NCBI GenBank assembly: GCA_964384235.1 | Contig: CAYLJX010000001.1 | Location: 86,792-150,791, forward strand | DNA: 64,000 bases | From: an uncultured Bdellovibrionales bacterium | GTDB taxonomy: Bacteria; Patescibacteriota; Minisyncoccia; Moranbacterales; UBA1568 | Direction of reading: 5' to 3' | In this document: positions 8,063-27,126 of the stretch, piece by piece | Layout of the letters: each line of letters begins with the position of its first letter | Position numbering within the stretch: the first letter of the stretch is position 1 | Program-made: the position numbers and the translations under genes | Notes under the pieces: model-generated | The model's database searches: none | What the model was told of the DNA's origin: nothing | The model's input: only the letters and a program-made list of their open reading frames with translations

Positions 8063-10150
8063 TTGCGACATATGACGCTCGAATACGTCCTGGCACTTTT
8101 CGTGCTGATGCTCATCTCGATGGGTGTGTTTTTCTTCGCCGGCCGCATCAAGGTGCCGTACACGGTGCTCCTGGTGCTCGTGGGATCGCTCCTGGTGCCG
8201 CTCTCTTCCGTGCCCGGTTTCCGTTTTCTCGGTGAGTTTCAGCTGACACCGGAGCTTCTCTTCTATATTTTCCTGCCCATCCTCATTTTCGAATCCGCCT
8301 ACAACATGCGGATACGGGAACTGCAGGAGAATATCCGTTCCGTCTCCTGGTTCGCGGTCGGCAGCCTCATCCTCTCGACGTTCTTCGTGGCGGGAGGGTT
8401 GTTCTTCGCTCTGCGGCTCATCGGTCTGGAGGTACCGTTCCTGGTGACGCTGCTCTTCGGGGCGCTCATTTCCGCGACCGATCCGGTAGCCGTTCTCGCA
8501 CTCTTCAAAGAGTTCGGGGTGCCGCGGCGGCTCTCGTTCATCTTCGAAGGAGAGAGTCTCTTCAACGACGGAACGTCACTAGCGGCCTTCCTCATCGTTC
8601 TGGAAGTCGTACTCAAGGGCTTCTCCGGAACGGGAACGGTTCTCGAGGGCGTTTTCATGTTTACGACGATGGTGGCGGGAGGCGTCGCGTTCGGTATCCT
8701 CATGGGGTTCCTCTTCGCGAAGCTCATCGAGAAGGCCGAGGGAAACGAGCATGTCGAGATCACGCTGACGCTTCTCGTCGCGCACCTGACATTCATCCTC
8801 TCCGAAGTGCTCTCGCACCATCTAGTGATCGCCGGTCAGGAGATCAAGTTCTCCTCCATCATCGCCACGGTCATGGCTTCCATGGTCATCGGCAATTACG
8901 GGCGTTCCAAACTGTCCGTCAAGACGGCGCACTTCATGGAGCGGTTCTGGGGGTACTTCGCCTTCGTGGCCAACTCCCTTGTCTTCATCACCATGGGACT
9001 CCTGTTCGCGAGCCTGCCGATCGATTTCGTGCCGTTCGTCGCGCCGATCCTGCTCGCGGTCTTCGTGGTGATGGTGGGCCGCGCCGTTTCCATCTATCCG
9101 GTCGCTGCCTGGCTCAACTTTTCCGGGAAGGAGAAGCGGATCCCGACCGCCTGGCAGCACCTCCTCGCCTGGGGGAGCCTGCGCGGGGCGCTCGCCGTCA
9201 CGATGGTGCTTCTCATTCCCGACGACCTGGTCCTGCCCGGCTGGCAGTATGACTTCACCATCAAGGAATTCATCACGGCGATCACCATCGGCTGCATCTA
9301 CTTCACGCTCTTCGTGAAGGCGACCACTATCGGGAGCATGATCAAACGCTACCGGTTGGACGCGCTGACGCCCACGGAACGGGCCGAGTATCACCAGAGC
9401 CGCACGTTCATCTTTTCGTACGCGCTGGAGAAGATCGGCGGTTTCCTCGAGAAGGGGTATGTGCCCGCCACGGTGCATGACCGGCTCGAGCGCGAGCTCA
9501 TGACGAAACGGGACGGGGAATATGCCGCCTGTGAAAAGATGCTCGGTCGGCGGTCGGAGGATTTCGAGCAGGCCCTGCGCATCTACGCGCTCGGCATCGA
9601 ACGCTACATCCTCAGGATGCTCTACCGTTTCGACGAGGTGAGCGAATCCGTCTACAAGAGGATCCTGACGAAGCTCGAGGTCCAGCAGGAACGGGTCGAG
9701 GAAGGCACTCCTCAGGTCCGGTCGCTCGATGAGCATTTCACGCCGGACTGGTTCGAACAGATGACCGGATTCGTCCGTTCCCGGTTGTTTCATCCGTCAG
9801 CGGAAGAATCCCTCAGGGAGCGATACATGTATTATCGGGCGCAGGAGATCATGGCCCGCAAGGCCGTCAAGGAATTAGGGAAGCTCAAGCACCGTTCCCG
9901 GCTGGAGTCGGAGATGTATTGCCGCGTGCTGGACGAGACGGTGGCCGCCTATCAGGCGTTTCATGATGACGCGCGGAAACGGACGGCGGAACTGGTCGCT
10001 GGAAACGGGACCGTCCTTCGGGAAATCGATCAGGAATTCGGACAGAGGAGCGTGAAGAAAGCGCTCGCGGAAGGACTGAACGAACTGACCCGCAAAGAAA
10101 TGCTTCCGTCCAAGCTTGCTGTCCTTTTGGAGGACGAGTTCGCGGGATAG
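8063..10150 (+). CDS. CPA1-family Na+/H+ (cation:proton) antiporter, NhaP-type, with a ~290-aa cytoplasmic C-terminal domain
   Basis: About 400 aa with 10-12 TM helices carrying antiporter motifs ('FEGESLFNDGTSLAAF', 'LSEVLSHHLVIAG'), then a charged soluble tail. Confidence 0.75.
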   Translation: MRHMTLEYVLALFVLMLISMGVFFFAGRIKVPYTVLLVLVGSLLVPLSSVPGFRFLGEFQLTPELLFYIFLPILIFESAYNMRIRELQENIRSVSWFAVGSLILSTFFVAGGLFFALRLIGLEVPFLVTLLFGALISATDPVAVLALFKEFGVPRRLSFIFEGESLFNDGTSLAAFLIVLEVVLKGFSGTGTVLEGVFMFTTMVAGGVAFGILMGFLFAKLIEKAEGNEHVEITLTLLVAHLTFILSEVLSHHLVIAGQEIKFSSIIATVMASMVIGNYGRSKLSVKTAHFMERFWGYFAFVANSLVFITMGLLFASLPIDFVPFVAPILLAVFVVMVGRAVSIYPVAAWLNFSGKEKRIPTAWQHLLAWGSLRGALAVTMVLLIPDDLVLPGWQYDFTIKEFITAITIGCIYFTLFVKATTIGSMIKRYRLDALTPTERAEYHQSRTFIFSYALEKIGGFLEKGYVPATVHDRLERELMTKRDGEYAACEKMLGRRSEDFEQALRIYALGIERYILRMLYRFDEVSESVYKRILTKLEVQQERVEEGTPQVRSLDEHFTPDWFEQMTGFVRSRLFHPSAEESLRERYMYYRAQEIMARKAVKELGKLKHRSRLESEMYCRVLDETVAAYQAFHDDARKRTAELVAGNGTVLREIDQEFGQRSVKKALAEGLNELTRKEMLPSKLAVLLEDEFAG

Positions 10151-10235: not shown

Positions 10236-10850
10236 ATGGAATTTTTCGGTATCGACCTGGTGGAGCTCATCAAGCTTGTCGGTCTCGTCGGGCTTTTCGC
10301 GATCGTGTTCGCGGAGACGGGGCTGTTCCTGGGATTTTTTCTCCCGGGAGACAGTCTGCTCTTCGTGGCAGGGTTTCTCGCGGCGGACGGATTCTTTTCA
10401 CTCCCGATTCTTCTTTTGGTGCTCTTCGTGGCGGCGGTGACGGGCAATCTGGTCGGGTACGAGTTCGGCCGGCGCGTGGGGGAGAAGCTCTTCAGCAAGG
10501 AGGATTCCCTTATCTTCAAGAAAGCGCACGCCGTGAAGGCACAGAACTTCTATGAAAAGCACGGTCCCAAGACCATCGTCTTGGCGCGTTTCATGCCGAT
10601 CGTCCGGACCTTCGCTCCGATCGTGGCCGGTGTCGCCAAGATGCGCTTCTCGGTCTTTTTCATGTACAACCTGATCGGAGCGCTGGCCTGGATCATTCTC
10701 TTGGTGCTTCTGGGGTACTCCCTCGGAAATGTCATCGATGTGGACAAGTATCTCCTGCCGATCGTTCTCCTCATCGTGTTCCTGTCTTTTCTCCCGGGGG
10801 TCGTGAGTTATGTCCGCGAGAAGCGCCGGGCAGCCGTTCCGACTGAATAG
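10236..10850 (+). CDS. DedA/SNARE-associated (VTT-domain) membrane protein
   Basis: 'FAETGLFLGFFLPGDSLLFVAGFLAA', 'GYEFGRRVGEKLFSKEDSLIF', 'KAQNFYEKHGPKTIVLARFMPIVRTFAPIVAGV' form the DedA core. Confidence 0.85.
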   Translation: MEFFGIDLVELIKLVGLVGLFAIVFAETGLFLGFFLPGDSLLFVAGFLAADGFFSLPILLLVLFVAAVTGNLVGYEFGRRVGEKLFSKEDSLIFKKAHAVKAQNFYEKHGPKTIVLARFMPIVRTFAPIVAGVAKMRFSVFFMYNLIGALAWIILLVLLGYSLGNVIDVDKYLLPIVLLIVFLSFLPGVVSYVREKRRAAVPTE

Positions 10851-10871: not shown

Positions 10872-10902
10872 TTGACAAAAAAGCCAAAAAGAGTAAGATA
10901 AT
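10872..10902 (+). promoter_or_regulatory. Candidate promoter for the complex-I-like operon (TTGACA ... GATAAT)
   Basis: 'tTTGACAaaaaagccaaaaagagtaaGATAATttt'. The spacer is 19 nt, so this is a weak call. Confidence 0.3.
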
Positions 10903-10968: not shown

Positions 10969-11499
10969 ATGTATCAATTGCTCCGAAAAATCTTCGTGAC
11001 CCCCAAGTTAACGATTCCCAAGGAAGAACTGCTCCAGGAAGATGTGGCCGTGATAGGGGAGAAGCTCGAGGCTTCCGTCCGAAAGCTTTTCAAGGGATCG
11101 CTTGCCATCCGCGAGGTGGCGGCCGGATCGAGCAATGCCGAGGAACAGGAACTCACGGCGCTCACCAATCCGTACTATGATATCGAACGTTTCGGCGTCC
11201 ATTTTGTCGCGTCTCCACGGCATGCCGATATGCTCTTCGTCACCGGTCCGGTCTCACGCAACATGGGGGAGGCGCTTAAGCGCACCTATGAGGCGATGCC
11301 GACTCCGAAGTACGTGGTAGCGGTGGGGGACGGCGCCATTGATGCAGGAGTGTACCGTGATTCCTATGCTGTCTACAACAGCGTGGCGGACGTCATTCCG
11401 GTCGATTTCAAGATTCCTGGTGATCCTCCTTCTCCCAAGACGGTCATGGCATCCCTTTTGAAGATCCTGGAAACGATTGATTCCGAAAAAACTCCCTAG
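10969..11499 (+). CDS. NuoB / [NiFe]-hydrogenase-small-subunit-like protein in which all four Fe-S (N2 cluster) cysteine ligands are replaced
   Basis: 'HFVASPRHADMLFVTGPVSRNMGEALKRTYEAMPTPKYVVAVGDGAIDAGVYRDSYAVYNSVADVIPVDFKIPGDPP' aligns to NuoB 'QSDLMVVAGT...[24 protein letters not shown]...[22 protein letters not shown]'. The CC, GAC and GCP cysteines are A/G, D and D here. Confidence 0.7.
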   Translation: MYQLLRKIFVTPKLTIPKEELLQEDVAVIGEKLEASVRKLFKGSLAIREVAAGSSNAEEQELTALTNPYYDIERFGVHFVASPRHADMLFVTGPVSRNMGEALKRTYEAMPTPKYVVAVGDGAIDAGVYRDSYAVYNSVADVIPVDFKIPGDPPSPKTVMASLLKILETIDSEKTP

Positions 11500-11513
11500 C
11501 CTCCTTCCTGCAT

Positions 11514-13571
11514 ATGATGGAATTCCTGCTTTCTTCAACTAGTATCCTTTTTCTGATCAGTCTTTTCCTGATCGGCGGTTTCGGGGCGCTGTTTCTGGAG
11601 CGCTTTTTCGATGACGGCGGCCGGATAGGGGGGATCTTCGCTCATGCGTTCGCGACGGCCGGATCGCTCCTGGGACTCGGGATCGCTTCCTCGGCCCTTC
11701 TGTCCGGACAGGGCATCAGTCTGCAGTTGCCGAGCGTCTTTCCTCTCTTCTCGTTCGCGTTCCGTCTCGACGGGCTTTCGGCGTTTTTCCTGGCGGTCGT
11801 GTCGCTCGTCGCCTTCGCCGCTTCCCTGTACGGTCTCTCGTATCAGAAACATTTCCTGGGTCAGTATCGTCTGGGACGCCTCGGCTTTTTCTACAATATT
11901 TTCGTCGGGAGCCTGATGCTGGTCACGCTTGCCAATCAGGGGCTTTTCTTCCTCTTCGTCTGGGAGATCATGTCGCTCGCGTCGTATTTCCTCGTCGTCT
12001 TCGAACATAAGAAGGATGAGAATATCCGCGCCGGCTTCCTGTACTTCCTCATGACGCACTTCGGGACCGTGTTCATCACGCTTGCGTTCTTCCTCGCGTA
12101 CCAGGCCACCGGATCGTTCCACTTCGATGTCTGGCGCGAATCCTTCGGGACGCTCTCGCCGACGGTGCAGGGACTGATCTATCTCTTCGTGCTCATCGGT
12201 TTCGGGACCAAGGCCGGTATCGTGCCCTTGCATATCTGGCTGCCCGAGGCGCATCCGGCCGCACCGTCCCATGTCTCCGCGCTCATGTCCGGCGTCATGA
12301 TCAAGACCGCGATCTTCATGTTCGTGCGGTTTTTCTTCGATTTCTTCCCGGGAGCATCGTACCAGTGGGGACTCGTCTTTCTGGTGCTCGGCGCCGTCGC
12401 GTCGCTTCTCGGTGTCCTGTACGCGCTTTCGGAGCATGACCTCAAGCGGCTTTTGGCGTATCACAGCGTGGAGAACATCGGTATCATCCTCTTGGGGTTC
12501 GGTGCTGCCGTCACTTTCTTCAGTCTGGGGCTTGAGAGCTTCGCCCTCTTCGCGCTCGCCGCATCGCTCTACCACACGATGAACCATGCCATCTTCAAAG
12601 CACTGCTCTTTTTGGGAGCAGGGTCGGTAGTTTCGGCCACCGGGACGCGTAATATGGAGGAGTACGGCGGACTGATCAAGCTGTTGCCGTTCACGTCGTT
12701 CTTCTTTCTCATCGGGTCGCTCGCCATCTCGGCCTTCCCGCCGTTCAACGGTTTCGCGAGCGAGTGGCTGACATTCCAGGCGCTCTTTGTCGGTATCGGA
12801 TCGGCCAGCATCCTGGTGAAGGCCGTTTTCATCGTCGCTATCGCGAGTCTCGCCTTTACTGGGGGGCTGGCGGCCGCCTGTTTCGTCAAGGCGTTCGGAG
12901 CGACATTCCTGGCCAAAGCGAGGAGTGCGGAGGTATCGCATGCGCATGAGGCAGCCCTTCCGATGCTCTTCGCGATGGGAGTGCTCGCGCTCCTGACGCT
13001 CGTTCTCGGCGTGTTCGCGACGTATGTGATCGCGGCCCTGGTCGCGGTCGTCGCGAGTATCGGACTCATCCAGCCGCAGACGCTCCAGTTCCCGTTCCTT
13101 GAGATCGTCTCGGCCCGGGACAACTTCGCTGACATCCTGCCGTTGGACCGGGTCGGATTCGCGCTGCTTCTCCTGCTGGTCCTCTCGATCGCCGTCGTCT
13201 CGTATCTGACGCGCCGCCGAAAAACCATCATCGGCAAGACGTGGGATTGTGGATATCCTCTCAATCCGCGTATGGAGATCACTGCGACGAGTTTCTCACG
13301 CTCGCTCATCACCATTTTCAAAGGCATCCTCAAGCCGACGAAACAGCATGATGTCGAGTACCATGACGAGAGCATGCGCTATTTCACCAAGGCAGAAGGC
13401 GTGACCCTCGGTTTCACGGACCTCTATCGCAAAGTCCTCTATCGTCCGCTGCACCGTATACTGCTTTTTTCCGCGACGCAGGCGAGACGGATCCAGGGAG
13501 GCAACATCAATGTCTATATCCTCTACGTGTTCGTCACCCTGATCGCGCTCCTTATCTGGTCCGCCCGCTAA
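11514..13571 (+). CDS. NuoL/MrpA/HyfB-like antiporter-type membrane subunit
   Basis: 685 aa, polytopic. 'FFLFVWEIMSLASYFLVVFEH', 'GIVPLHIWLPEAHPAAPSHVSALMSGVMIKTAIF', 'LLAYHSVENIGIILLGFG' are complex-I antiporter-like subunit motifs. Confidence 0.8.
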   Translation: MMEFLLSSTSILFLISLFLIGGFGALFLERFFDDGGRIGGIFAHAFATAGSLLGLGIASSALLSGQGISLQLPSVFPLFSFAFRLDGLSAFFLAVVSLVAFAASLYGLSYQKHFLGQYRLGRLGFFYNIFVGSLMLVTLANQGLFFLFVWEIMSLASYFLVVFEHKKDENIRAGFLYFLMTHFGTVFITLAFFLAYQATGSFHFDVWRESFGTLSPTVQGLIYLFVLIGFGTKAGIVPLHIWLPEAHPAAPSHVSALMSGVMIKTAIFMFVRFFFDFFPGASYQWGLVFLVLGAVASLLGVLYALSEHDLKRLLAYHSVENIGIILLGFGAAVTFFSLGLESFALFALAASLYHTMNHAIFKALLFLGAGSVVSATGTRNMEEYGGLIKLLPFTSFFFLIGSLAISAFPPFNGFASEWLTFQALFVGIGSASILVKAVFIVAIASLAFTGGLAAACFVKAFGATFLAKARSAEVSHAHEAALPMLFAMGVLALLTLVLGVFATYVIAALVAVVASIGLIQPQTLQFPFLEIVSARDNFADILPLDRVGFALLLLLVLSIAVVSYLTRRRKTIIGKTWDCGYPLNPRMEITATSFSRSLITIFKGILKPTKQHDVEYHDESMRYFTKAEGVTLGFTDLYRKVLYRPLHRILLFSATQARRIQGGNINVYILYVFVTLIALLIWSAR

Positions 13572-13586
13572 TTTTCCCGCATCCGT

Positions 13587-14558
13587 ATGAGTATCCTCAT
13601 CTTTCTCCTCCAACTGATCGTCGTGCCGGTTCTCTCACCGCTCTCTATCGGCATCGTCCGCAAGCTGAAGGCCCGGATGCAGAACCGCGTCGGCGCGAGC
13701 GTGTTCCAGCCGTACCGGGACCTGTGGAAACTCTTCCACAAAGACGAAGTCATCTCGGAGGATGCCTCCTGGATCTTCCGTTTTTCGCCGTATCTCATCT
13801 TCGCGGTCGTGCTCCTCATCGGGGCGGGGGTGCCCGTCGTGACGGCGCTCACCCCGTCGATCATCGCCGGGGACGGGGCTTCGGAATGGCTCTCGCTCCT
13901 TTCGGCGGGTGATTTTCTCGTCATCGTGTACCTCTTGGCGCTCGCGACATTCTTCCTGGCGCTTGGTGGGATGGAGACAGGGAGCGGTTTCGGAGGATTC
14001 GGCTCCAGCCGTGAGATGACCATGGCGGCGCTGACCGAGGGAGGACTCCTGTTCTCGCTCCTTTCCGTGTCCGTCGTCGCCCAGACGGGCAATGTCATGA
14101 CGATGGTGGAGAATCTCCAGCTCATGCCGTTTCAGGCCTTCCTGCCGCTTATCGTGGCGTTCTTCGCGTTCTACATCGCGCTCCTTTCCGAAAACGGTCG
14201 CTTCCCGGTGGACAACCCGGCGACCCATCTCGAGCTCACCATGATCCATGAGGCGATGATCCTTGAGTATTCCGGCAAGCGTCTCGCTCTTTTGGAGTGG
14301 GCGAGCTGGAGCAAGTTCCTCATCTTCGTCGTTCTGGGTGTCAACCTGTTCTTTCCGTGGGGGGTGGCGACGAGTCTGGAACCGAAAGTACTGCTTCTTT
14401 CAACGGTTTTCTTTGTGCTCAAGACCCTCGTGCTTTTGGGAAGCGTCGCGTTTCTCGAATCGACCATGGCGAAATTCCGCATTTTCCGCGTTCCGGATCT
14501 CCTGTTCACCTCGTTCGTTCTCGGTGTCATCGCCCTTGGCATCATCATAACCTTTTAG
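13587..14558 (+). CDS. NuoH/HycD/HyfC-like membrane subunit
   Basis: 'RKLKARMQNRVGASVFQPYRDLWKLFHKDEV' resembles the NuoH/HycD N-terminal 'RKxxARxQxRxGP...QPxADxxKLxxKE' motif; about 8 TM helices. Confidence 0.75.
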   Translation: MSILIFLLQLIVVPVLSPLSIGIVRKLKARMQNRVGASVFQPYRDLWKLFHKDEVISEDASWIFRFSPYLIFAVVLLIGAGVPVVTALTPSIIAGDGASEWLSLLSAGDFLVIVYLLALATFFLALGGMETGSGFGGFGSSREMTMAALTEGGLLFSLLSVSVVAQTGNVMTMVENLQLMPFQAFLPLIVAFFAFYIALLSENGRFPVDNPATHLELTMIHEAMILEYSGKRLALLEWASWSKFLIFVVLGVNLFFPWGVATSLEPKVLLLSTVFFVLKTLVLLGSVAFLESTMAKFRIFRVPDLLFTSFVLGVIALGIIITF

Positions 14559-14561
14559 TTT

Positions 14562-15218
14562 ATGGAATTTTCCGCTGAACTTTTCTTCTTTCTCGACCTG
14601 CTCGCGTTTCTCGCGGCGATCTTCATGCACCTCGTGAAGAAGAATGCCAACCTGATCCGGCTCTACGTGGCGCAGTCCCTTGCCGTTTCCGTGCTGCTCC
14701 TGGTCATCGGACTGAGCGAGGGGGAACAGAGTCTCATTTGGATCGCGGTGCTCACGTTCGCCATCAAGAGTGTCGCGGCCCCGGCCTTCTTTTTCCGCCT
14801 CATGCGGCGCTTCGGATCGCAGTTCACCGCGAGCAACTACCTCAATACCCCGCTCACGCTCCTCGTCTTGGCGGCCCTCATTATTCTTGCGTATTCCCGC
14901 GTCTTCCTGCCGCTCGGCACGCTCGTTCCGCAGGCGGTCGGGTATCTTTCTCTCACCCTCTCGATCGTCTTCGTATCGATATTCCTCATGATCAATCGCC
15001 GCGGGGCGTTCGCCCAGATGGTCGGCATCCTGTCACTCGAGAACGGTATCGTACTCCTGGCGGCCCTCATCGGTATACAGCAGCCGCTTGCCCTGGAAAT
15101 CGGCATCATCTTCGACATCGTCATCTGGATGGTCATCGCCAACGTGTTCATCGCCATGATCTATCGCCAGTTCGGTTCGCTCAACATCACCGAGCTTAAA
15201 CGTCTCACGGAAGATTAA
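14562..15218 (+). CDS. HyfE/NuoK-NuoJ-like small membrane subunit
   Basis: 218 aa, about 6 TM helices. Its size and operon position match hydrogenase-4 component E / Mrp-like small subunits. No catalytic motif. Confidence 0.55.
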   Translation: MEFSAELFFFLDLLAFLAAIFMHLVKKNANLIRLYVAQSLAVSVLLLVIGLSEGEQSLIWIAVLTFAIKSVAAPAFFFRLMRRFGSQFTASNYLNTPLTLLVLAALIILAYSRVFLPLGTLVPQAVGYLSLTLSIVFVSIFLMINRRGAFAQMVGILSLENGIVLLAALIGIQQPLALEIGIIFDIVIWMVIANVFIAMIYRQFGSLNITELKRLTED

Positions 15219-15223
15219 ACCCT

Positions 15224-16678
15224 ATGCAGCTCACGTTTCTCATCGCTTTGCCGCTTCTCGTCGTCTGTTTCATCGCGCTCCTGCAGGCGAGGCACGTCCG
15301 TTTCATCGAGGCGGCGGTCGTTCTCTCGGCCTTCGTCGAGTTCGGTCTCGCACTAGTGCTTCTCCCGTCGGTCCTCGCGAACGGGGCGGTGGCAGCCACC
15401 TCTTTCTTTTCGCTGGATGCCTTCGGGGCGTTCCTGTCGCTCATCATCGCGCTCGTCGGATTGTTTGTCAGTCTCTACTCCGTCGGGTACCTGCGGGCGG
15501 AAGTGACCAAGGGGATCATCGGTCTGCGGCGCGTCCGCCAGTACTATCTCCTCCTGGAGCTCTTCCTCTTCGCGATGATGCTCGCGGTCGCGACCATCAA
15601 TCCGGTCGTCATGTGGATCGCCATCGAGGCCACGACGCTCTCCACGGCGTTCCTCATCAGCTTCTACAACAAGCCTTCCGCGACGGAAGCGGCGTGGAAG
15701 TACCTCATCCTCAACTCCCTGGGACTGCTCCTCTCCCTCCTCGGAACGCTCATGTTCCTCGCCCTGCCGGAACTGAAAAGCGGCTCGCTCACCTGGGAGA
15801 ACCTGCGTGCCGCGGCGGGTGATTTCCATCCGCTCGCGGTCAAGGTCGCCTTCGTGTTCATCCTGGTCGGGTACGGGACCAAGGCCGGCCTGGTGCCGTT
15901 CCATACCTGGAAGCCGGATACCTATTCCAAGGCGCCGGCCCCGGTCGTCGCGCTGCTTTCCGGTGTCCTTCTCAACGTGGCGTTTTTCGCGATCATGCGT
16001 TTCAAGGGCGTGACGGATGCGGCGCTCCAGTCCGAATTCGCTGGGGGACTTCTCATCTTCTTCGGAACGCTGTCCGTGGCGCTCGCCGCACTCATCATTT
16101 TCATCCAGAAGAACTACAAGCGGCTCCTCGCCTATTCCAGCATCGAACATGCGGGACTCATCGCGCTCGGCTTCGGCTTCGGCGGTATCGGGACGTTCGC
16201 GGCCCTGCTCCACATGTTGTACCACTCGCTCACCAAGGCACTCCTCTTTTTCGGATCAGGAAACATCTTCCTCAAGTACAGCTCCACCAAGATGAAGAAC
16301 GTGACGGGCGTTCTCCAGGTATTGCCGGCGACGACGGTGCTGTTTTTTGCCGGGTTCATCGCGATCGCCGGACTGCCGCCTTTCGGAATATTCGTGTCCA
16401 AGATGCTCCTGCTTTCGGCTGGTATGGGCGAGCATCCGGTCCTGGTGGGTTTCATCCTGCTTTCCCTGGCGGTCGTCTTCTTCGGTTTCTTCCGGCATCT
16501 CACCGCGCTCCTCTTCGGTGAGCCGGCCCCGGGCATCGAGAAGGGGGAGATGCACATACTGACGCTCTTCCCGGTCTTTCTTCTGGCCGGACTGATCATC
16601 GTCTTGAGTTTCCACTTCCCTGCGGAACTGGAGCTGCTTATCGAGTCCGCGGCGGATAGTCTCTCGATCAAACCCTAA
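15224..16678 (+). CDS. NuoN/NuoM/HyfF-like antiporter-type membrane subunit
   Basis: 'GLVPFHTWKPDTYSKAPAPVVALLSGVLLNVAFFAIMRF', 'LLAYSSIEHAGLIALGFG'. Confidence 0.8.
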   Translation: MQLTFLIALPLLVVCFIALLQARHVRFIEAAVVLSAFVEFGLALVLLPSVLANGAVAATSFFSLDAFGAFLSLIIALVGLFVSLYSVGYLRAEVTKGIIGLRRVRQYYLLLELFLFAMMLAVATINPVVMWIAIEATTLSTAFLISFYNKPSATEAAWKYLILNSLGLLLSLLGTLMFLALPELKSGSLTWENLRAAAGDFHPLAVKVAFVFILVGYGTKAGLVPFHTWKPDTYSKAPAPVVALLSGVLLNVAFFAIMRFKGVTDAALQSEFAGGLLIFFGTLSVALAALIIFIQKNYKRLLAYSSIEHAGLIALGFGFGGIGTFAALLHMLYHSLTKALLFFGSGNIFLKYSSTKMKNVTGVLQVLPATTVLFFAGFIAIAGLPPFGIFVSKMLLLSAGMGEHPVLVGFILLSLAVVFFGFFRHLTALLFGEPAPGIEKGEMHILTLFPVFLLAGLIIVLSFHFPAELELLIESAADSLSIKP

Positions 16679-16683
16679 CGGCC

Positions 16684-18279
16684 ATGCCTATGTCTGAAAT
16701 GACGAACACTTCATTGGAACGCTACGGTCTGGGACGGCACCTCTCCGTTCGGAAAGGAAATCTCTCCCTGTTCGACGTGTCGGCGGAGGATCTGCCGGAA
16801 ACGGTGCAGACGCTCATGCACGAGCACAACCTCCCGCTCAAGACCGTCGTAGCGACCGACGAACGCAAAGAGGGAGGAGTCTTCCGTATCCGGTATGTCT
16901 TCGGTCTCCCCAAGCAGGACGGGTTTCTCGTCCCGGTCCTGTCCGTCGATCCGTACGTGCAGAGCTTTCCGTCGCTGGTCTCCGTCGATCAGGAGTTCGC
17001 CGTCTATGAACAGGAGATACAGACCTTCTTCGGACTGGAACCCCTGGGGCATCCGCGTCCCGGTCGCATCCTGCTCCACGGGGAAAACTTTCCTGCGGAC
17101 TGCCATCCGCTTCGGAAGGACTTCGCTTGGAATACGAATGTCGAGGCACCGAAAGAAAAAATCCTTCCGACATTCAGGAAGTTCGAGGGTGAGGGAGTGT
17201 ATGAGATTCCTGTCGGACCGGTCCATGCCGGGATCATCGAGCCGGGACATTTCCGTTTCAGCGTCTTGGGTGAGGAAATCCTCCGTCTCGAGCCGCGTTT
17301 GGGCTACGTGCACAAGGGGACCGAGAAACTATTTGAGACGCTGCCTCTAGATCAGAAGCTCCGGCTTTCGGAGCGTGTTTCCGGTGACAGTTCCTTCCAT
17401 CACGCGCTCGCTTTCGCCCAGGCGATCGAGACGCTTGCGGGAGTCGCGGTGCCGGATCGGGCCAGATTCCTGCGGACGGTGTACGCCGAACTCGAGCGCC
17501 TCGCCAATCATTTCAATGATCTTGCCTTCATCATGCTCGATACCGGTTTCAGCTTCGGTGGCAGTCAGGGGACGCGCCTGCGGGAACGGGTGATGCGGTG
17601 GAACGAGAGGCTGACCGGGAGCCGGTTCCTGCGAGGAGTGGTCGCTTTCGGCGGCGTGACGAAGGATCTCGATGAAAAAATGATCGATGAGCTGCAGGAC
17701 GATCTCGAACTTTTGGAAAAGGATTTCCAGGAAGTGATCGATGCGACCAAGGAGACCGACTCGCTCCTTAACCGACTCAAAGGGACGGGAACGCTCTCAT
17801 CCCAGGTGGCCCGGGATCACGGGGCGGTGGGTATCGCCGCGCGGGCCGTCGGCGAAGAAACGGACGCCCGGGCCGACTATCCCTATGCCGCCTACGAAGA
17901 GGTTCAGTTCAGTGTCCCGACGGAAGAGAGCGGGGACGTCTATGCCAGATATCGGGTGCGTATCCGTGAGGTACACCAGTCCTTCCGTATCCTCAATCAG
18001 GCGCTTACGCTTCTCACTCACCAGCCGGCACCGATCGTCTCGGGATTGCCCAAATTCCCTGCGTCCTCCATGGCGCTCGGGGTCGTCGAGGGATGGCGTG
18101 GAGATATCGTGTATTTTGTGGCGACGGACGCCGAAGGCAACATCTCGCGTGTCAAAGTGCGCGACCCCTCCTTCCTCAACTGGCAGCTTTTCCCGTACGT
18201 CGTGACCAATGACATGGTGCCGGACTTCCCTTTGATCAACAAGAGTTTTAACCTCTCCTATACCGGAAACGACCTCTAG
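16684..18279 (+). CDS. Fused NuoC-NuoD-like / hydrogenase-large-subunit-like protein without NiFe-binding cysteines
   Basis: The N-terminal third is NuoC-like. Then 'VGPVHAGIIEPGHFRFSVLGEEILRLEPRLGYVHKGTEKLFE' resembles NuoD 'GPQHPAAHGVLRL...HRGTEKL'. Positions that hold RxCGxC and DPCxxC in [NiFe] hydrogenases read 'LGYVHKGTEK' and 'DPSFLNWQ'. Confidence 0.75.
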   Translation: MPMSEMTNTSLERYGLGRHLSVRKGNLSLFDVSAEDLPETVQTLMHEHNLPLKTVVATDERKEGGVFRIRYVFGLPKQDGFLVPVLSVDPYVQSFPSLVSVDQEFAVYEQEIQTFFGLEPLGHPRPGRILLHGENFPADCHPLRKDFAWNTNVEAPKEKILPTFRKFEGEGVYEIPVGPVHAGIIEPGHFRFSVLGEEILRLEPRLGYVHKGTEKLFETLPLDQKLRLSERVSGDSSFHHALAFAQAIETLAGVAVPDRARFLRTVYAELERLANHFNDLAFIMLDTGFSFGGSQGTRLRERVMRWNERLTGSRFLRGVVAFGGVTKDLDEKMIDELQDDLELLEKDFQEVIDATKETDSLLNRLKGTGTLSSQVARDHGAVGIAARAVGEETDARADYPYAAYEEVQFSVPTEESGDVYARYRVRIREVHQSFRILNQALTLLTHQPAPIVSGLPKFPASSMALGVVEGWRGDIVYFVATDAEGNISRVKVRDPSFLNWQLFPYVVTNDMVPDFPLINKSFNLSYTGNDL

Positions 18280-18412: not shown

Positions 18413-19372
18413 CTAGATATTGATTCCGAAGAAGGAGCGGAGAATATATCCGAAAAGCGATGAGATGCCGACGGCGATAACGATGGTCGCGATGTTGATG
18501 AGGATGCGTTTGCGGGTCTTCATGCCGGAGAGAAAGGCGAGAACGGCGGAAACGACTACGATCGCGAGACCGGCAAAGAGGATCGACAGGAGCGGATCAG
18601 TGGCGCCCAGGAAGACGGGAAGGATCGGAAAGGCAGCCCCGATGAAGTAACTTATCCCGACGATGAGAGCGGTGGAAAGGGGATTTTCGACGGTTTCGCT
18701 GCTCCCGTTTTCGGTTCCCAGGAAGCGTGCTTTGCCACGTTCGAGCGAGCGTACTTCGTTCTCGGAGTTGGAGGCGGCAAAGGCTCCGGCTCCCATGGAG
18801 ATGGCGCCCGCGACCGCGACCGTGAGACCGGCGATCAGGACCGAGGGGGCGTGCTGAAAGGCGGCAAAGAAACCGCTCACCGCGCCAAGGATCTCGACGA
18901 GACCGTCGTTGAATCCCAGGAAGACGCTTCGTACCCGCTCGGGACTGATGTTCTTGCTGGTGTAGCGGCTGACGATCTCGTCTTCGTGGCCGAACTCGTC
19001 TTGGAGGACGTCCCGGACCTTGGATTCGAAGGGTGTGCCCTTGGTCTGTTTCCAAAGGACGAGATATTTCCTGATCCCGTACACCTCGATGGCTTCGAGC
19101 GTGAGGTGGATGCCGGCTTCCCCGAAGATGCGGCAGACGACCAGGAGGACGGACATCTTGATCTTTTGCTTCCAGGTCAAGGTTTTGAGTTTCAGGTCGA
19201 AGTAGTCCTGCCAGAAAGCCAGATGCCGCGTTTCCACGGTCACGAGCGAATCGAGCATCGTTTTTGTGTCCCCCGTGGCGATGAGGGAGAGTTTCTGGTA
19301 GAGCGTCAGGTCGAACAGTTCGTCAAGGACGAGCTGTCGCGCCAGTTTGTGGTCATAATCCGGAGTATCCAT
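18413..19372 (-). CDS. VIT1/CCC1-family Fe/Mn transporter with an N-terminal ferritin/rubrerythrin-like domain
   Basis: From 'MDTPDYDHKLARQLVLDELFDLTLYQKL...' (ferritin-like helices), then 'GFNDGLVEILGAVSGF...' and a glycine-rich TM C-terminal half typical of VIT1. Confidence 0.7.
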   Translation of the reverse strand: MDTPDYDHKLARQLVLDELFDLTLYQKLSLIATGDTKTMLDSLVTVETRHLAFWQDYFDLKLKTLTWKQKIKMSVLLVVCRIFGEAGIHLTLEAIEVYGIRKYLVLWKQTKGTPFESKVRDVLQDEFGHEDEIVSRYTSKNISPERVRSVFLGFNDGLVEILGAVSGFFAAFQHAPSVLIAGLTVAVAGAISMGAGAFAASNSENEVRSLERGKARFLGTENGSSETVENPLSTALIVGISYFIGAAFPILPVFLGATDPLLSILFAGLAIVVVSAVLAFLSGMKTRKRILINIATIVIAVGISSLFGYILRSFFGINI

Positions 19373-19443
19373 AGACAATAAAGAAAAAAGCGGTATCTCC
19401 AGTATACCACTTTCTCCCGGGTTGCCGAGATATTGGGGGGTTG

Positions 19444-20247
19444 TCACATCCAGCGAGTGATGACGAAGACGTAGGCGGCGACGAGGACCCAGAATGACCA
19501 GAGGAAGAAACGTCGGCCCCTGTTCCGCAGGACCTCGTCCTGCATGACTTCCTTGGTGGTGATGCCGAAGCTCTTGAAGATGAAGGTGGATTCGAAGAGA
19601 CGGACGATGACGACCCAGGCGAGGAACATGCCGACATATAATCCGAGTCCCGGTATGTTCGGGCGGGCGAGCTCCGGGGTGGGATTGCCGCCGCCGACTT
19701 TCAGCCACTTCATCCACCCGGCCCACTTCATGTTAAAGACATGGATGATCGTGAGGAGAACGACGAGACGGAGTCCCCAGCGCTGCATGAACCACCAACG
19801 CTTGGCACCGAGAAGCGCTATAGCCTTTTTGAACGAAATGAGGAAGAGAAAGACGAGAAGCGCGATGCCGACGAGTCCCGCGGCGAACTCGAGCGAAGCG
19901 AGTGATACTTTGGAGTGGGGGAACTTGAGCGGGAGGAAGAAGTACGAGACGATCACATGGCCGAGGAGGACGAACGTGGCGACGATGCCGATCTCCTTGC
20001 GAAGGCCGAGCCAGTTGTCGAAGCGATCGAAATAGCGCGCGATCGGCCCGATGAGGAAGACGAGGGAGAGCATCACCGTCCCGGTGCCAGCCAGGGCCTT
20101 GTTGGGGACGTAGAGCACGTCGGCGGTCGGTGGCGCGTCGAAGAAGTAGCCACGCCGGAACAGGAGGTAGAGACTGAAAAACCCGAAAAGGGCGGCCGCG
20201 ATGAGGATCGCGATGAGATAGTCCCGCAGACTCGACGGCTTATGCAT
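19444..20247 (-). CDS. Polytopic membrane protein, possibly with a ferric-reductase-like/MsrQ-like haem-binding TM domain
   Basis: Six or seven TM helices with conserved His in the helices ('LLGHVIVSYFF', 'TIIHVFNMKW'). Lies immediately upstream of the VIT1 gene. The family call is tentative. Confidence 0.35.
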   Translation of the reverse strand: MHKPSSLRDYLIAILIAAALFGFFSLYLLFRRGYFFDAPPTADVLYVPNKALAGTGTVMLSLVFLIGPIARYFDRFDNWLGLRKEIGIVATFVLLGHVIVSYFFLPLKFPHSKVSLASLEFAAGLVGIALLVFLFLISFKKAIALLGAKRWWFMQRWGLRLVVLLTIIHVFNMKWAGWMKWLKVGGGNPTPELARPNIPGLGLYVGMFLAWVVIVRLFESTFIFKSFGITTKEVMQDEVLRNRGRRFFLWSFWVLVAAYVFVITRWM

Positions 20248-26064: not shown

Positions 26065-27126
26065 ATGGCACCCGCAACCCCGGAATCATCCGAAAACAAG
26101 CACTTTTCATTCATTGAGGCGCTCGAGGTATTCTTGGAGCGTCTGCCGGCACGTTCCCGCACGATCGTGGAGGCCCGTTTCGGTATCGGTGAGGGGAAGG
26201 ATCAGTCAACCCCCAAGACGCTCGAAGAAATCGGTAAAAGCTATGGCATCACGCGCGAGCGGGTACGCCAGGTTATCGGGAGCGCTCTCTCATCCCTTCG
26301 CAAGGAACAGGGACGTCCTGAGGTCAAAGCCGCCGAAGCCTACATCCAATCGACGCTTGAAAAGAAGAGTGGTATCATGGGAGCGGATGCGCTGCTTGAG
26401 ACGCTTGCCTCCGATGAGAGGGAGCGGGGGGCACTCCTCGTCTTTCTCGAATGTCTCTCCGGCGTGCGGTATGAGAAGCCGGCCAAGGACCGCGAGGCCG
26501 CGTATATGACGGAAGGGTTTTCCCTTACGGCGTGGCAGAAGGTCGCGGACACTGCCAAGAAGATCCTGGCGGAGAAAAAGGAATCACTCGACTCCGTGTC
26601 CCTTTTCGGTTCGTTTCGGAAGAGCGGGGGTTCACTCGACGAGACGGCTTTCTTCGACTACCTCTCCGTTTCCAAGGACGTGAAACGAAACGTCTTCGGT
26701 CAGTGGGGACTCTCGGGCTGGAACGACATCAAACCGCGCGGTACCCGGGAAAAGGCCTACCTCGTCCTCAAGACCAAGAAGAAGCCGCTTCACTTCCGCG
26801 AGATCGCCAGGCTCATCGATGAGTACGGCCTGCACGCCCGTACGCGCAAGAGCCATCCGCAGACCGTCCACAACGAGCTCATCAAGGACAAACGGTTCGT
26901 CCTCGTCGGTCGCGGCATCTACGCGCTCGCCGAGTGGGGATACAAGAAGGGCACGGTCAAGGAAGTCGTCGAAGAGATCCTGCGCGGTGCCAAGGAGCCG
27001 ATGTCCCGTGAGACGATTCTCGATCGCGTGCTCAAGGTCCGCAAGGTCAAGAAGTCGACCGTCATCATCAATCTGAACATGTTTTTCTCCCGGGTCGGCA
27101 AAGACACATATACTATCAGGAAGTAA
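26065..27126 (+). CDS. Sigma-70 region-4-like HTH followed by a HARE-HTH winged-helix domain; putative transcription regulator
   Basis: 'TLEEIGKSYGITRERVRQV' is a sigma70 region 4.2 HTH. The C-terminal 'HFREIARLIDEYGL...HPQTVHNELIKDKRFVLVGRGIYALAEWGY' resembles the HARE-HTH of RNAP delta / RpoE-N. Confidence 0.55.
   Translation: MAPATPESSENKHFSFIEALEVFLERLPARSRTIVEARFGIGEGKDQSTPKTLEEIGKSYGITRERVRQVIGSALSSLRKEQGRPEVKAAEAYIQSTLEKKSGIMGADALLETLASDERERGALLVFLECLSGVRYEKPAKDREAAYMTEGFSLTAWQKVADTAKKILAEKKESLDSVSLFGSFRKSGGSLDETAFFDYLSVSKDVKRNVFGQWGLSGWNDIKPRGTREKAYLVLKTKKKPLHFREIARLIDEYGLHARTRKSHPQTVHNELIKDKRFVLVGRGIYALAEWGYKKGTVKEVVEEILRGAKEPMSRETILDRVLKVRKVKKSTVIINLNMFFSRVGKDTYTIRK

What the first reader, a model, noticed from the sequence alone, without database searches (positions are those of the whole stretch)
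10969..11499. NuoB / hydrogenase-small-subunit homolog with its N2 [4Fe-4S] ligands replaced
The conserved block '...[15 protein letters not shown]...YSVV...[14 protein letters not shown]' reads '...PKYVVAVGDGAIDAGVYRDSYAVYNSVADVIPVDFKIPGDPP' here. The CC pair region upstream reads 'AAGSS'. The fold is otherwise well conserved, so the gene looks functional rather than a pseudogene, but it cannot carry the terminal Fe-S cluster that defines the Q/H2 site.
Basis: seen in the sequence. Interest (0 to 1): 0.7.

Follow-up and report, generated by a model that had tools for sequence, protein, structure and literature searches.

The report
Hydrogenase-like subunit without its iron-sulfur cluster
A small protein that normally holds the last iron-sulfur cluster of respiratory complex I and membrane hydrogenases has lost all four cluster-binding cysteines in this Patescibacteria-like bacterium and its relatives, yet it stays strongly conserved inside a six-gene membrane complex with no redox-cofactor site left, so the complex probably moves ions without electron chemistry.

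Summary
ORF 10969-11499 (+) is a 176-aa NuoB/MbhJ/HycG homologue (Pfam PF01058, E 8e-24) with no cysteine. The four [4Fe-4S] ligands are replaced by S55, E58, G122 and D152. This is not decay: all 120 closest homologues lack the four-Cys set, dN/dS is 0.11, and the protein evolves no faster relative to the large subunit than its cluster-bearing relatives do.

It is the first gene of a tight six-gene operon (10969-18279) of the Hyf/Hyq/"Ehr" type. The large subunit also lacks the NiFe cysteines. No NuoI/HycF-type ferredoxin subunit was found. The six proteins hold 4 Cys in 2,417 residues. The charged residues of the membrane arm are intact.

Non-CPR Ehr/Hyq relatives keep all four cysteines. 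The cluster was lost once at the base of a CPR clade and independently in a Methanosarcinales-centred clade. The emptied pocket usually carries three carboxylates. In 6 of 22 CPR loci the operon follows the F1Fo ATP synthase operon.

Best reading: a redox-dead, complex-I-like ion translocator. CPR Ehr large subunits lacking NiFe ligands are published; I found no report of the small-subunit cluster loss. This is a new variant of a known kind.

The parts
10872..10899 (+). Promoter-like site TTGACA-16-TAAGAT, about 70 nt upstream of the first gene of the operon
   Evidence: Consensus scan, 10 of 12 matches. This is a pattern match only.
10969..11499 (+). Cysteine-free NuoB/HycG/MbhJ/HyqI-like small subunit (176 aa). 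Former cluster ligands are S55, E58, G122 and D152, with D121 adjacent.
   Evidence: dN/dS is 0.109.
11131..11142 (+). Codons 55-58 (S-N-A-E), replacing the CxxC (hydrogenase) or CC (complex I) ligand pair
   Evidence: Read from the sequence and from the alignments to MbhJ and HycG.
11329..11334 (+). Codons 121-122 (D-G), replacing the A/D-C of the third ligand
11422..11424 (+). Codon 152 (D), replacing the Cys of PGCPP, the fourth ligand
   Evidence: It is D in 120 of 120 close homologues.
11514..13571 (+). HyfB/HycC/NuoL-like antiporter-type subunit (685 aa) with E151, K233, H240, H247, K264, H354, H358, K362 and E417 retained
   Evidence: PF00361 at E 3e-55. NCBIfam hydrogenase 4 subunit B at 662 bits. 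PDB 7z0s_C at E 3e-72. Residue conservation in 22 CPR loci.
13587..14558 (+). HyfC/HycD/NuoH-like subunit (323 aa)
   Evidence: PF00146 at E 1e-42. PDB 7z0s_D at E 1e-41. Many conserved Glu/Asp/Arg residues in CPR loci.
14562..15218 (+). HyfE-like membrane subunit (218 aa)
   Evidence: NCBIfam NF008556 hydrogenase 4 membrane subunit, E 1.7e-18, below its cut-off. No Pfam hit. K69 and E160 are conserved.
15224..16678 (+). HyfF/NuoN/M-like antiporter-type subunit (484 aa) with E135, K220, H227, H334, K338 and K393 (K/E) retained
   Evidence: PF00361 at E 2e-50. NCBIfam hydrogenase 4 subunit F at 427 bits. Conservation in CPR loci.
16684..18279 (+). Fused NuoC-NuoD / HycE / HyqG-like large subunit (531 aa) without NiFe ligands
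   Evidence: PF00329 and PF00346. PDB 7z0s_E at E 2e-69. The NiFe cysteine positions are S233, S236, S525 and G528.
17374..17403 (+). RVSGDSSFHH (aa 231-240), the former L1 motif RxCGxCxxxH. The SGD core is conserved across all Ehr-type loci examined.
18235..18273 (+). I518-NKSFNLSYTGND(530), the former L2 region. I518 and L524 replace cysteines conserved in rhizobial HyqG (C491, C497).
   Evidence: Sprecher 2012, PMC3357923.

Best explanation
The gene encodes the small peripheral subunit of a six-subunit Hyf/Hyq/'Ehr'-type complex-I-like membrane complex that has lost every recognisable redox-cofactor site.

Shown:
- The small subunit has no cysteine and so cannot ligate a [4Fe-4S] cluster.
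- The large subunit lacks all four NiFe cysteines and the cysteines conserved in rhizobial HyqG.
- No NuoI/HycF-type ferredoxin subunit was found in the operon, and no ferredoxin-type Cys motif in the 64-kb window.
- The genes are under strong purifying selection.
- The membrane arm keeps the Lys/Glu/His residues that carry protons in complex I, MBH and Mrp.

Inferred:
- The complex no longer transfers electrons. It works as a secondary (Mrp-like) cation/proton translocator, or as another device coupled to the ion gradient.
- The NuoB/NuoCD cap is kept as the structural and coupling (gating) module over the NuoH-like channel.
- The emptied cluster pocket is filled by about three carboxylates (here E58, D121, D152). 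These would replace the buried negative charge of the [4Fe-4S](Cys)4 centre and may act as a protonation- or cation-sensitive switch in place of the redox switch.
- Placement directly behind the F1Fo ATP synthase operon in several CPR lineages suggests a role in managing the ion-motive force in fermentative cells that lack a respiratory chain.
For: Homology and loss of the ligands.

Clade-wide conservation of the replacements: 120 of 120 close homologues lack the four-Cys set, and the region around the former ligands (GSLAIREVAAGSSNAEEQEL, VVAVGDGAI, IPGDPPSP) is the most conserved part of the protein.

Purifying selection: dN/dS is 0.109 for the small subunit and 0.08-0.11 for the neighbouring subunits at dS 0.7-0.9. 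The rate ratio of small to large subunit is 0.61 in the CPR clade against 0.57 in cluster-bearing relatives.

Fold retained.

Large subunit: NiFe ligands are S233, S236, S525 and G528. The complex-I quinone ligands H38 and Y87 of Nqo4 align to I185 and G234 (alignment). The HyqG cysteines are lost.

No ferredoxin-type CxxCxxCxxxC ORF occurs in the 64-kb window, no such ORF sits inside the CPR operons, and the six subunits hold only 4 Cys in 2,417 aa.

Membrane arm intact.

Carboxylate count: 153 of 164 distinct Cys-less sequences, and 19 of 29 distinct residue patterns, have exactly three Asp/Glu among the five pocket positions, in different positional combinations.

ATP synthase linkage: atp genes lie upstream on the same strand in 6 of 22 CPR loci, with atpC abutting the small-subunit gene in L012, L013, L016 and L023. 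This is seen in 0 of 58 non-CPR loci.

Cluster loss occurred twice independently: NJ bootstrap for a joint clade is 0 of 100. This suggests the cluster is dispensable for whatever this architecture does.
Against: No transport or biochemical data exist for any member, so the function is inferred from sequence and context only.

The roughly 700-aa peripheral module is expensive. Its former active-site residues (S233, D235, H240, K520, S521, S525, Y526, D530) are at least 90% conserved in CPR loci and shared with cluster-bearing Ehr. This fits a ligand-binding or catalytic site better than a passive cap.

The Mrp subunits thought to form the Na+ path (MrpE/F/G and others) are absent.

The six-subunit relative Hyq of Azorhizobium was reported, from genetic and physiological studies, to have hydrogenase activity despite lacking NiFe cysteines (PMC2650096, PMC3357923). 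Sequence-based predictions of inactivity in this family have therefore been contested before.

The former ligand positions vary between CPR subclades (S/T/D, E/C/A, G/D, D/N), so any precise switch geometry is unproven.

ATP synthase adjacency is absent in this window, and the neighbouring Na+/H+ exchanger is syntenic only in close relatives.
Confidence: 0.55

Rival explanations
1. The former cluster pocket has become a binding site for a cation or a mononuclear metal (Na+, K+, Mg2+, Ca2+, Mn2+ or Fe2+), held by the carboxylate triad plus Ser/Thr. Ion binding there is the sensed or transported species, or a catalytic metal.
For: About three Asp/Glu are kept among the five pocket positions in 153 of 164 Cys-less sequences, and S/T/D is kept at position 55. 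E59, E61 and D121 are invariant. The pocket region is the most conserved part of the protein.
Against: The carboxylates sit at different positions in different subclades (E58+D121+D152, D121+D122+D152, D55+D121+D122). That fits charge compensation better than a fixed coordination geometry. D121 is also present in cluster-bearing Ehr. No structural model of the assembled pocket could be made with the tools available.
Confidence: 0.2
2. The complex is an enzyme driven by the ion gradient, or generating it, that carries out non-redox chemistry at the conserved former NiFe pocket of the large subunit. CO2 hydration on NDH-1MS/CupA or DabAB would be the analogy. The small subunit serves only as part of the coupling interface.
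For: The pocket residues SGD(S/T)S...H and NKSFNLSY.G.D are conserved across all 80 Ehr-type loci whether or not the cluster is present. The EPGHFR loop is conserved.
Against: No candidate substrate exists, and there are no conserved accessory genes besides the six subunits. No Zn- or metal-type His/Cys ligand set is present.
Confidence: 0.15
3. Electron transfer still occurs. A separately encoded ferredoxin, flavoprotein or formate dehydrogenase docks on the complex and delivers electrons directly to an unknown site, as proposed for FDH-Ehr complexes in Margulisbacteria and Saganbacteria.
For: The literature generally assumes that Ehr complexes couple cytoplasmic redox reactions to ion translocation (PMC6349859).
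Against: No cluster, flavin or NiFe ligand set remains in either peripheral subunit. No ferredoxin-like subunit is present in the operon. Without the proximal cluster there is no relay to the buried pocket. The HyqG-type cysteines are lost together with the cluster.
Confidence: 0.07
4. Strain-specific decay, meaning a pseudogene or a non-functional remnant.
For: None beyond the missing cysteines.
Against: The ORF is intact with a conserved start (MYxLLRKI). It has more than 120 homologues at 65-100% identity with the same replacements. dN/dS is 0.11. There is no rate acceleration. It sits in a tight operon with 3-15 nt spacers. Identical genes were found on contigs from independent sequencing runs.
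Confidence: 0.01

Closest known systems
[quoted passage not shown] 2020 (PMC7304191)
   Same: A group-4-hydrogenase-like large subunit without NiFe cysteines, clustered with NuoH-like and antiporter-like subunits. Jaffe et al. already report a monophyletic CPR Ehr clade lacking the metal-binding cysteines of the large subunit, and conclude that it probably cannot interact with H2.
   Different: In what I could read of that paper, only the large subunits of the CPR Ehr were examined. Here the small subunit has also lost the [4Fe-4S] ligands, whereas all 52 non-CPR, non-archaeal-type Ehr loci examined keep CC..C..C. The usual assumption that Ehr couples redox reactions to ion translocation (PMC6349859) cannot apply here.
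Hyq 'endo-hydrogenase' HyqBCEFGI of Azorhizobium caulinodans and other alphaproteobacterial diazotrophs (PMC2650096, PMC3357923)
   Same: The same six subunit types: HyqB/C/E/F membrane subunits, the fused NuoCD-like HyqG and the NuoB-like HyqI. HyqG also lacks the NiFe CxxC motifs. The numbering of HyqI C55, C58 and C152 coincides with S55, E58 and D152 here.
   Different: Sprecher et al. 2012 report that HyqI orthologues conserve four cysteines, which they assign to an N2-type cluster, and that HyqG conserves C258, C491 and C497 (PMC3357923). The window protein has S/E/G/D and M284/I518/L524 at those positions. The gene order differs: small subunit first here, last in hyq. Identity is only about 50%.
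E. coli hydrogenase 4 / formate hydrogenlyase (Hyf; Hyc structure 7Z0S)
   Same: These are the best solved-structure matches for four subunits: HycG (1.8e-24), HycC (3e-72), HycD (1e-41) and HycE (2e-69). NCBIfam names the membrane subunits hydrogenase 4 subunits B, E and F.
   Different: There is no NiFe site, no proximal cluster, no HycF/HyfH or HyfA ferredoxin subunit, and no formate dehydrogenase.
Pyrococcus furiosus MBH subunit MbhJ (6CFW) and MBS
   Same: MbhJ is the best sequence and fold match for the small subunit (E 5.9e-25; TM 0.87, rmsd 2.1 A).
   Different: MbhJ binds a [4Fe-4S] cluster through four Cys. MBS keeps a three-Cys cluster as its catalytic centre (PMC8165549). The protein here has none.
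Complex I subunit NuoB/PSST/Nqo6 (cluster N2)
   Same: The same Pfam family and fold. Public pipelines name this protein NuoB.
   Different: There are no tandem cysteines (A57/E58) and no third or fourth ligand. The quinone ligands of the partner subunit are absent (I185, G234). There is no NuoI, E, F or G.
Mrp multisubunit cation/proton antiporter
   Same: It is cofactor-free and built from MrpA/D-type antiporter-like subunits with the same Lys/Glu/His chain. This is the proposed functional analogue.
   Different: Mrp has no NuoB/NuoCD/NuoH-like module. The window complex lacks MrpB, E, F and G. It is not a member of the Mrp family.

Membership tests
NuoB / Oxidored_q6 (PF01058) fold family | Profile match above the curated threshold | tested here: met
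   PF01058 at 84.3 bits against 27. NF005012 at 121.3 bits against 116.
NuoB / Oxidored_q6 (PF01058) fold family | Flavodoxin-like NuoB fold | tested here: met
   AF2 model with pLDDT 82.6. Foldseek finds MbhJ at TM 0.87 and rmsd 2.1 A, and Aquifex NuoB at rmsd 1.7 A.
NuoB / Oxidored_q6 (PF01058) fold family | Four cysteines ligating the proximal/N2 [4Fe-4S] cluster | tested here: not met
   The positions are S55, E58, G122 and D152, and the protein has zero Cys.
Group 4 membrane-bound [NiFe]-hydrogenase | L1 (RxCGxCxxxH) and L2 (DPCxxC) NiFe-binding motifs in the large subunit | tested here: not met
   The motifs read RVSGDSSFHH and NLSYTG, giving S233, S236, S525 and G528.
Group 4 membrane-bound [NiFe]-hydrogenase | Fe-S relay: small-subunit cluster plus a 2x[4Fe-4S] HycF/NuoI-like subunit | tested here: not met
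   There is no Cys in the small subunit. No CxxCxxCxxxC ORF occurs in the 64-kb window or in the CPR operons.
Group 4 membrane-bound [NiFe]-hydrogenase | Hyp maturation genes in the genome | not testable with these tools
   Only a 64-kb window is available.
[quoted passage not shown] | Group-4-like large subunit lacking the NiFe ligands, clustered with NuoH-like and antiporter-like subunits | tested here: met
[quoted passage not shown] | Phylogenetic placement among Ehr sequences | tested here: met
In the NJ tree the CPR clade is sister to cluster-bearing Nitrospirae Ehr. This agrees with Jaffe 2020. It is an NJ-level analysis only.
[quoted passage not shown] | Small subunit with a four-Cys [4Fe-4S] site (typical of the family, and not known to be definitional) | tested here: not met
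   CC.CC in 52 non-CPR bacterial and archaeal loci. It is absent in 22 CPR loci and 6 archaeal-type loci.
Hyq endo-hydrogenase (HyqBCEFGI) | Six-subunit composition B, C, E, F, G, I | tested here: met
Hyq endo-hydrogenase (HyqBCEFGI) | Conserved HyqI C55/C58/C1xx/C152 and HyqG C258/C491/C497 | tested here: not met
   The window has S55/E58/G122/D152 and M284/I518/L524 (PMC3357923).
Respiratory complex I (Nuo/Nqo) | Quinone-binding His and Tyr of NuoD (Nqo4 H38, Y87), tandem-Cys N2, NuoI and the N-module | tested here: not met
   The positions are I185 and G234 (alignment) and A57/E58. No further Nuo subunits are present in the operon.
Mrp cation/proton antiporter | MrpA/D-type subunits with the conserved TM5 Glu and TM7/TM8/TM12 Lys/Glu chain | tested here: met
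Mrp cation/proton antiporter | Seven-subunit MrpA-G composition without a peripheral arm | tested here: not met
   The operon has six Hyf-type genes, including NuoB-, NuoCD- and NuoH-like subunits.

The most novel reading that the evidence does not exclude
This is a natural, cofactor-free complex-I-type coupling machine. The NuoB/NuoCD/NuoH junction is kept because it is the gate of the ion-translocating membrane arm. A buried triad of carboxylates in the former N2 pocket, titrated by pH or by a cation, has replaced the redox switch. Because the pocket of the large subunit is equally conserved in cluster-bearing and cluster-less members, and the cluster was discarded twice independently, the [4Fe-4S] of Ehr/Hyq complexes in general may be regulatory or structural rather than part of a catalytic electron path.
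Probability: 0.25. Interest if true: 0.8.

Novelty: new variant of a known kind. Interest (0 to 1): 0.6.

Why it matters
How chemistry at the NuoB/NuoD/NuoH junction drives ion pumping some 100-200 Å away is the central open problem for complex I, MBH and FHL (my own knowledge of the field). Here nature has removed every redox centre but has kept the junction, the E-channel-like NuoH homologue and two antiporter-like subunits under strong selection, and it did so twice.

Such a complex would be a minimal system for asking what the peripheral module contributes mechanically, separate from electron transfer.

It also bears on the energy budget of Patescibacteria/CPR, which lack respiratory chains. 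In several lineages the genes continue the ATP synthase operon.

On the practical side, public pipelines label these proteins 'NADH-quinone oxidoreductase subunit NuoB' or 'Ni,Fe-hydrogenase III small subunit'. Metabolic reconstructions that read them as respiration or H2 metabolism in CPR genomes would be wrong.

Tried and rejected
1. Strain-specific decay or pseudogene was rejected.

2. I looked for overlooked cysteines or an alignment shift. The protein has none at all.

3. I looked for a NuoI/HycF-like ferredoxin subunit in the operon, in the 64-kb window and in 22 CPR loci. None was found. The only CxxCxxCxxxC ORFs (in L018 and L019) lie outside the six-gene clusters.

4. I tested for a functional link to the neighbouring Na+/H+ exchanger, VTT/DedA and VIT1 genes. 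The synteny holds only among close relatives (L001-L006, L008), so it is not a family-wide association.

5. I asked whether the CPR and the Methanosarcinales-type Cys-less groups share a single loss. This was rejected at NJ level, with 0 of 100 bootstraps for a joint clade.

6. Literature: nine full-text searches found no report of a cluster-less small subunit in Ehr or CPR. Marreiros et al. 2013, which surveyed the Ehr complexes, is not held, so I cannot exclude that it mentions this.

7. I did not attempt a model of the small-large subunit pair. The tool predicts one protein at a time from window or database sequences, and it returns no coordinates, so distances within the pocket could not be measured.
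Full report
**What is at the coordinates.** ORF 10969-11499 (+) encodes a 176-aa protein.
- It matches Pfam PF01058 (NADH:ubiquinone oxidoreductase 20-kDa subunit) at E 7.9e-24.
- It passes the NCBIfam NuoB subfamily cut-off, 121.3 bits against 116.
- Among solved structures the best matches are MbhJ of the Pyrococcus membrane-bound hydrogenase (6cfw_J, E 5.9e-25) and HycG of E. coli formate hydrogenlyase (7z0s_G, E 1.8e-24), followed by complex I PSST/NuoB chains.
- The protein has no cysteine.

**Where the four cluster ligands went.** The printed alignments and a MAFFT alignment with MbhJ and HycG place the ligands as follows:
- C-x-x-C becomes S55 and E58 ('GSSNAEEQEL' against 'GSCNGCDIEI').
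- 'GAC' becomes 'GDG', so the third ligand is G122.
- 'PGCPP' becomes 'PGDPP', so the fourth ligand is D152.

On the complex-I register the tandem cysteines correspond to A57 and E58. Only the assignment of the first ligand pair to 'SS' in 'AAGSS' needed adjusting.

**The fold is retained.** An AlphaFold2 model built on 31 homologues has pLDDT 82.6 and pTM 0.76. It superposes on MbhJ (TM 0.87, rmsd 2.1 A) and on Aquifex NuoB (rmsd 1.7 A).

**This is not decay.**
- A search of 5.8 billion proteins returned thousands of relatives. The 120 best (65-100% identity) are mostly unnamed; the few that carry names are called Moranbacteria, Patescibacteria group or 'Ni,Fe-hydrogenase III small subunit'.
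- None of the 120 has the four-Cys set. Position 55 is S in 109, N in 6 and T in 5. Position 58 is E in 114 and C in 6. Position 122 is G in 113, D in 6 and S in 1. Position 152 is D in all 120. Of the 120, 101 have no cysteine at all.
- The segments around the former ligands are the most conserved parts of the family.
- Against an 87%-identical orthologue (L084) dN/dS is 0.109 at dS 0.73, similar to the three neighbouring subunits at 0.08-0.11.
- The core of the small subunit evolves at 0.61 times the rate of the large subunit in the Cys-less CPR clade, against 0.57 in cluster-bearing relatives. Constraint was therefore not relaxed after the loss.

**Context: a six-gene operon.** The gene opens a tight operon with 3-15 nt spacers, preceded by a promoter-like TTGACA-16-TAAGAT at 10872-10899. 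In order, the genes are:
- the small subunit;
- a HyfB/HycC/NuoL-like subunit (11514-13571);
- a HyfC/HycD/NuoH-like subunit (13587-14558);
- a HyfE-like subunit (14562-15218);
- a HyfF/NuoN-like subunit (15224-16678);
- a fused NuoC-NuoD/HycE-like large subunit (16684-18279).

**The large subunit has also lost its metal and quinone sites.** It reads RVSGDSSFHH where hydrogenases have RxCGxCxxxH, and NLSYTG where they have DPCxxC. All four NiFe ligands are gone: S233, S236, S525 and G528. The complex-I quinone ligands (Nqo4 H38 and Y87) align to I185 and G234.

**No other redox site was found.** No ORF in the whole 64-kb window carries a ferredoxin-type CxxCxxCxxxC motif. The six subunits together hold 4 cysteines in 2,417 residues.

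**The membrane arm looks fully functional.** The TM5 Glu, the TM7/TM8 Lys, the TM11-12 His/Lys and the TM12 Glu/Lys of both antiporter-like subunits are conserved in 20-22 of 22 CPR loci. These are E151, K233, H240, H247, K264, H354, H358, K362 and E417 in one subunit, and E135, K220, H227, H334, K338 and K/E393 in the other. One exception is the TM8 position of the HyfF-like subunit, which is Asn (N251) in 18 of 22 loci instead of Lys. Many acidic residues of the NuoH-like subunit are conserved as well.

**Where the variant sits among relatives.** A scan of one genome per GTDB species gave 598 confirmed relatives, of which 80 loci were retrieved.
- All 75 large subunits recovered from these loci lack the first two NiFe cysteines. 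All 70 that are complete at the C-terminus lack all four. They share the SGD(S/T)(S/T) and NKS..SY.G.D motifs, so these are Ehr/Hyq-type clusters.
- The 52 loci from Proteobacteria (including the rhizobial hyq operons), Methylococcales, Nitrospirae, Chloroflexi, Omnitrophota, Saganbacteria and a few archaea keep all four small-subunit cysteines.
- The 22 loci of the CPR type do not. They are labelled Moran-, Magasanik-, Levy-, Falkow- and Kaiserbacteria and Parcubacteria, plus a few MAGs with other labels. Their gene order has the small subunit first. Their residue patterns are SE.GD, TC.DD, DA.DD, TA.DD, DC.DN and TE.GD.
- A second Cys-less group has DT.DN or DP.DN, with the small subunit last. 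It comprises Methanosarcina, other Methanosarcinales, Methanomicrobiales, a Dehalococcoidales MAG and a Moduliflexus MAG.

**Two independent losses.** I built a neighbour-joining tree of the concatenated large and small subunits (668 columns, 74 taxa, 100 bootstraps).
- The CPR group is a clade in 72% of replicates. Its sister is cluster-bearing Nitrospirae.
- The archaeal-type group is a clade in 100% of replicates. Its sisters are cluster-bearing Saganbacteria and Omnitrophota.
- The two groups never form a joint clade (0%). The cluster was therefore lost at least twice.

A search of 1.84 billion cluster representatives agrees. Of the 150 best hits, 97 keep CCCC, and about 25-30 distinct 50%-identity clusters lack most or all ligands.

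**What replaced the cluster.** Five pocket positions were scored (55, 58, 121, 122, 152). Of 164 distinct Cys-less sequences, 153 carry exactly three Asp/Glu. So do 19 of the 29 distinct residue patterns. The carboxylates sit at different positions in different subclades (E58+D121+D152, D121+D122+D152, D55+D121+D122 and others). I read this as conservation of buried negative charge, since a [4Fe-4S](Cys)4 centre carries -2 or -3 (established chemistry). I do not read it as a fixed metal site. That is an inference.

**Correlated cysteine loss in the large subunit.** Several cysteine positions of the large subunit are 100% Cys in the rhizobial loci: window positions M284, V490, I518 and L524. 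Three of them appear to correspond to HyqG C258, C491 and C497 of Sprecher et al. 2012. Across the 50 cluster-bearing loci with a large subunit in the alignment they are Cys in 36-76%. They are essentially absent from both Cys-less lineages. Redox-relevant cysteines thus disappear from both subunits together.

**Genomic context.** Clustering the flanking ORFs of the 22 CPR loci found only one recurrent neighbour, the F1Fo ATP synthase operon. It lies upstream on the same strand in L009, L012, L013, L016, L018 and L023. In four of these, atpC abuts the small-subunit gene. This is not seen in any of the 58 non-CPR loci. In this window the neighbours are a CPA1-type Na+/H+ exchanger and a VTT/DedA protein upstream, and a VIT1 protein downstream. 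That synteny holds only among close relatives.

**Interpretation.** The following are shown:
- a conserved, selected, cysteine-free NuoB-fold protein;
- a complex with no recognisable Fe-S, NiFe, flavin or quinone site;
- an intact ion-translocation apparatus.

The following are inferred. The complex is redox-dead and acts as a secondary, Mrp-like cation/proton translocator, or as another device coupled to the ion gradient. It would serve ion-motive-force homeostasis in fermentative CPR cells alongside the ATP synthase. The peripheral cap is retained as the gate and coupling element, and the carboxylate triad substitutes electrostatically for the cluster.

The main rivals are a genuine cation or metal site in the former pocket, non-redox catalysis at the conserved large-subunit pocket, and electron input from an unidentified partner. 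The strong conservation of the large-subunit pocket is the main reason I hold the primary mechanism at only moderate confidence. A further caution comes from reports of H2-linked activity for Azorhizobium Hyq despite missing NiFe ligands (PMC2650096, PMC3357923). Sequence-based inactivity calls in this family have been contested before.

**Relation to the literature.**
- Ehr complexes are cited as named and surveyed by Marreiros et al. 2013 in PMC4758237 and PMC6349859. The original paper is not held.
- Jaffe et al. 2020 (PMC7304191) report a monophyletic CPR Ehr clade whose large subunits lack the metal-binding cysteines, and they infer no interaction with H2. In what I could read of the paper, the small subunits of that clade are not examined.
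- Matheus Carnevali et al. 2019 (PMC6349859) assume that Ehr complexes couple cytoplasmic redox reactions to ion translocation.
- Sprecher et al. 2012 state that all HyqI orthologues conserve the four cysteines.

Nine full-text searches found no description of a cluster-less small subunit. The finding is therefore a new variant of a known kind, not a new kind.

**Caveats.**
- The phylogeny is NJ only.
- Taxon labels of several MAGs in the CPR clade (Bdellovibrionales, Syntrophus, Thermoleophilia, Gammaproteobacteria) conflict with their CPR-like synteny. They may be binning or labelling errors, or real gene transfers.
- No coordinates were available to measure the geometry of the pocket.

Noticed in passing
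L029, L031, L032, L034, L040, L046 (e.g. L032 10001-10453, Methanosarcina sp. Mfa9 chromosome): There is a second, independent lineage of Ehr-type clusters with a Cys-less small subunit (patterns DT.DN and DP.DN, small subunit last in the operon). It occurs in Methanosarcina, other Methanosarcinales and Methanomicrobiales, plus a Dehalococcoidales MAG and a Moduliflexus MAG. In the NJ tree it forms a clade with 100% bootstrap support and never joins the CPR clade.
   Followed up: partly
L009, L012, L013, L016, L018, L023 (e.g. L016 atpC 9552-9992, small subunit from 10001): In 6 of 22 CPR loci the F1Fo ATP synthase operon lies directly upstream of the Cys-less Ehr-like operon on the same strand. 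In four of these atpC abuts the small-subunit gene. None of the 58 non-CPR loci shows this. No atp genes are present in this window.
   Followed up: partly
window 16684-18279 (M284, V490, I518, L524): Cysteines of the large subunit that are conserved in rhizobial HyqG (C258, C491, C497) and common in cluster-bearing Ehr are absent from both Cys-less lineages. The losses in the two peripheral subunits are therefore correlated.
   Followed up: yes
window 10969-11499 and database homologues (P0017, P0039, P0080): Public annotation calls these cysteine-free proteins 'NADH-quinone oxidoreductase subunit NuoB' or 'Ni,Fe-hydrogenase III small subunit'. The NCBIfam NuoB model passes its cut-off (121 bits against 116). 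This is a likely source of wrong respiration or H2-metabolism calls in CPR genomes.
   Followed up: partly
L004, L005, L010, L011, L019, L024: MAGs labelled Bdellovibrionales, Syntrophus aciditrophicus, Thermoleophilia and Gammaproteobacteria carry CPR-type Cys-less operons. L004 and L005 share the window's S16-L10-L7/L12-Na/H exchanger-VTT synteny. The labels may be binning or taxonomy errors, or the operons may have been transferred.
   Followed up: no
window 8063-10150 and 10236-10850: A 695-aa CPA1-type Na+/H+ exchanger with a long cytoplasmic C-terminal extension (weak CdvA-like coiled-coil hit) and a VTT/DedA membrane protein sit just upstream of the operon. The synteny holds only in close relatives.
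   Followed up: partly
window 18413-19726 (-): The VIT1-family (Fe/Mn transporter-like) ORF is convergent with the operon. The longest ORF is 437 aa from a GTG, but the gene called on a near-identical contig is 319 aa, so the upstream part of the long ORF is probably not translated.
   Followed up: no
window 28515-30542 (+) and 26065-27126 (+): One ORF is a TraG/VirD4/TrwB-like coupling-protein ATPase with a C-terminal treble-clef zinc finger. Another protein combines sigma-70 region 4 with a HARE-HTH domain. Neither appears related to the finding.
   Followed up: no
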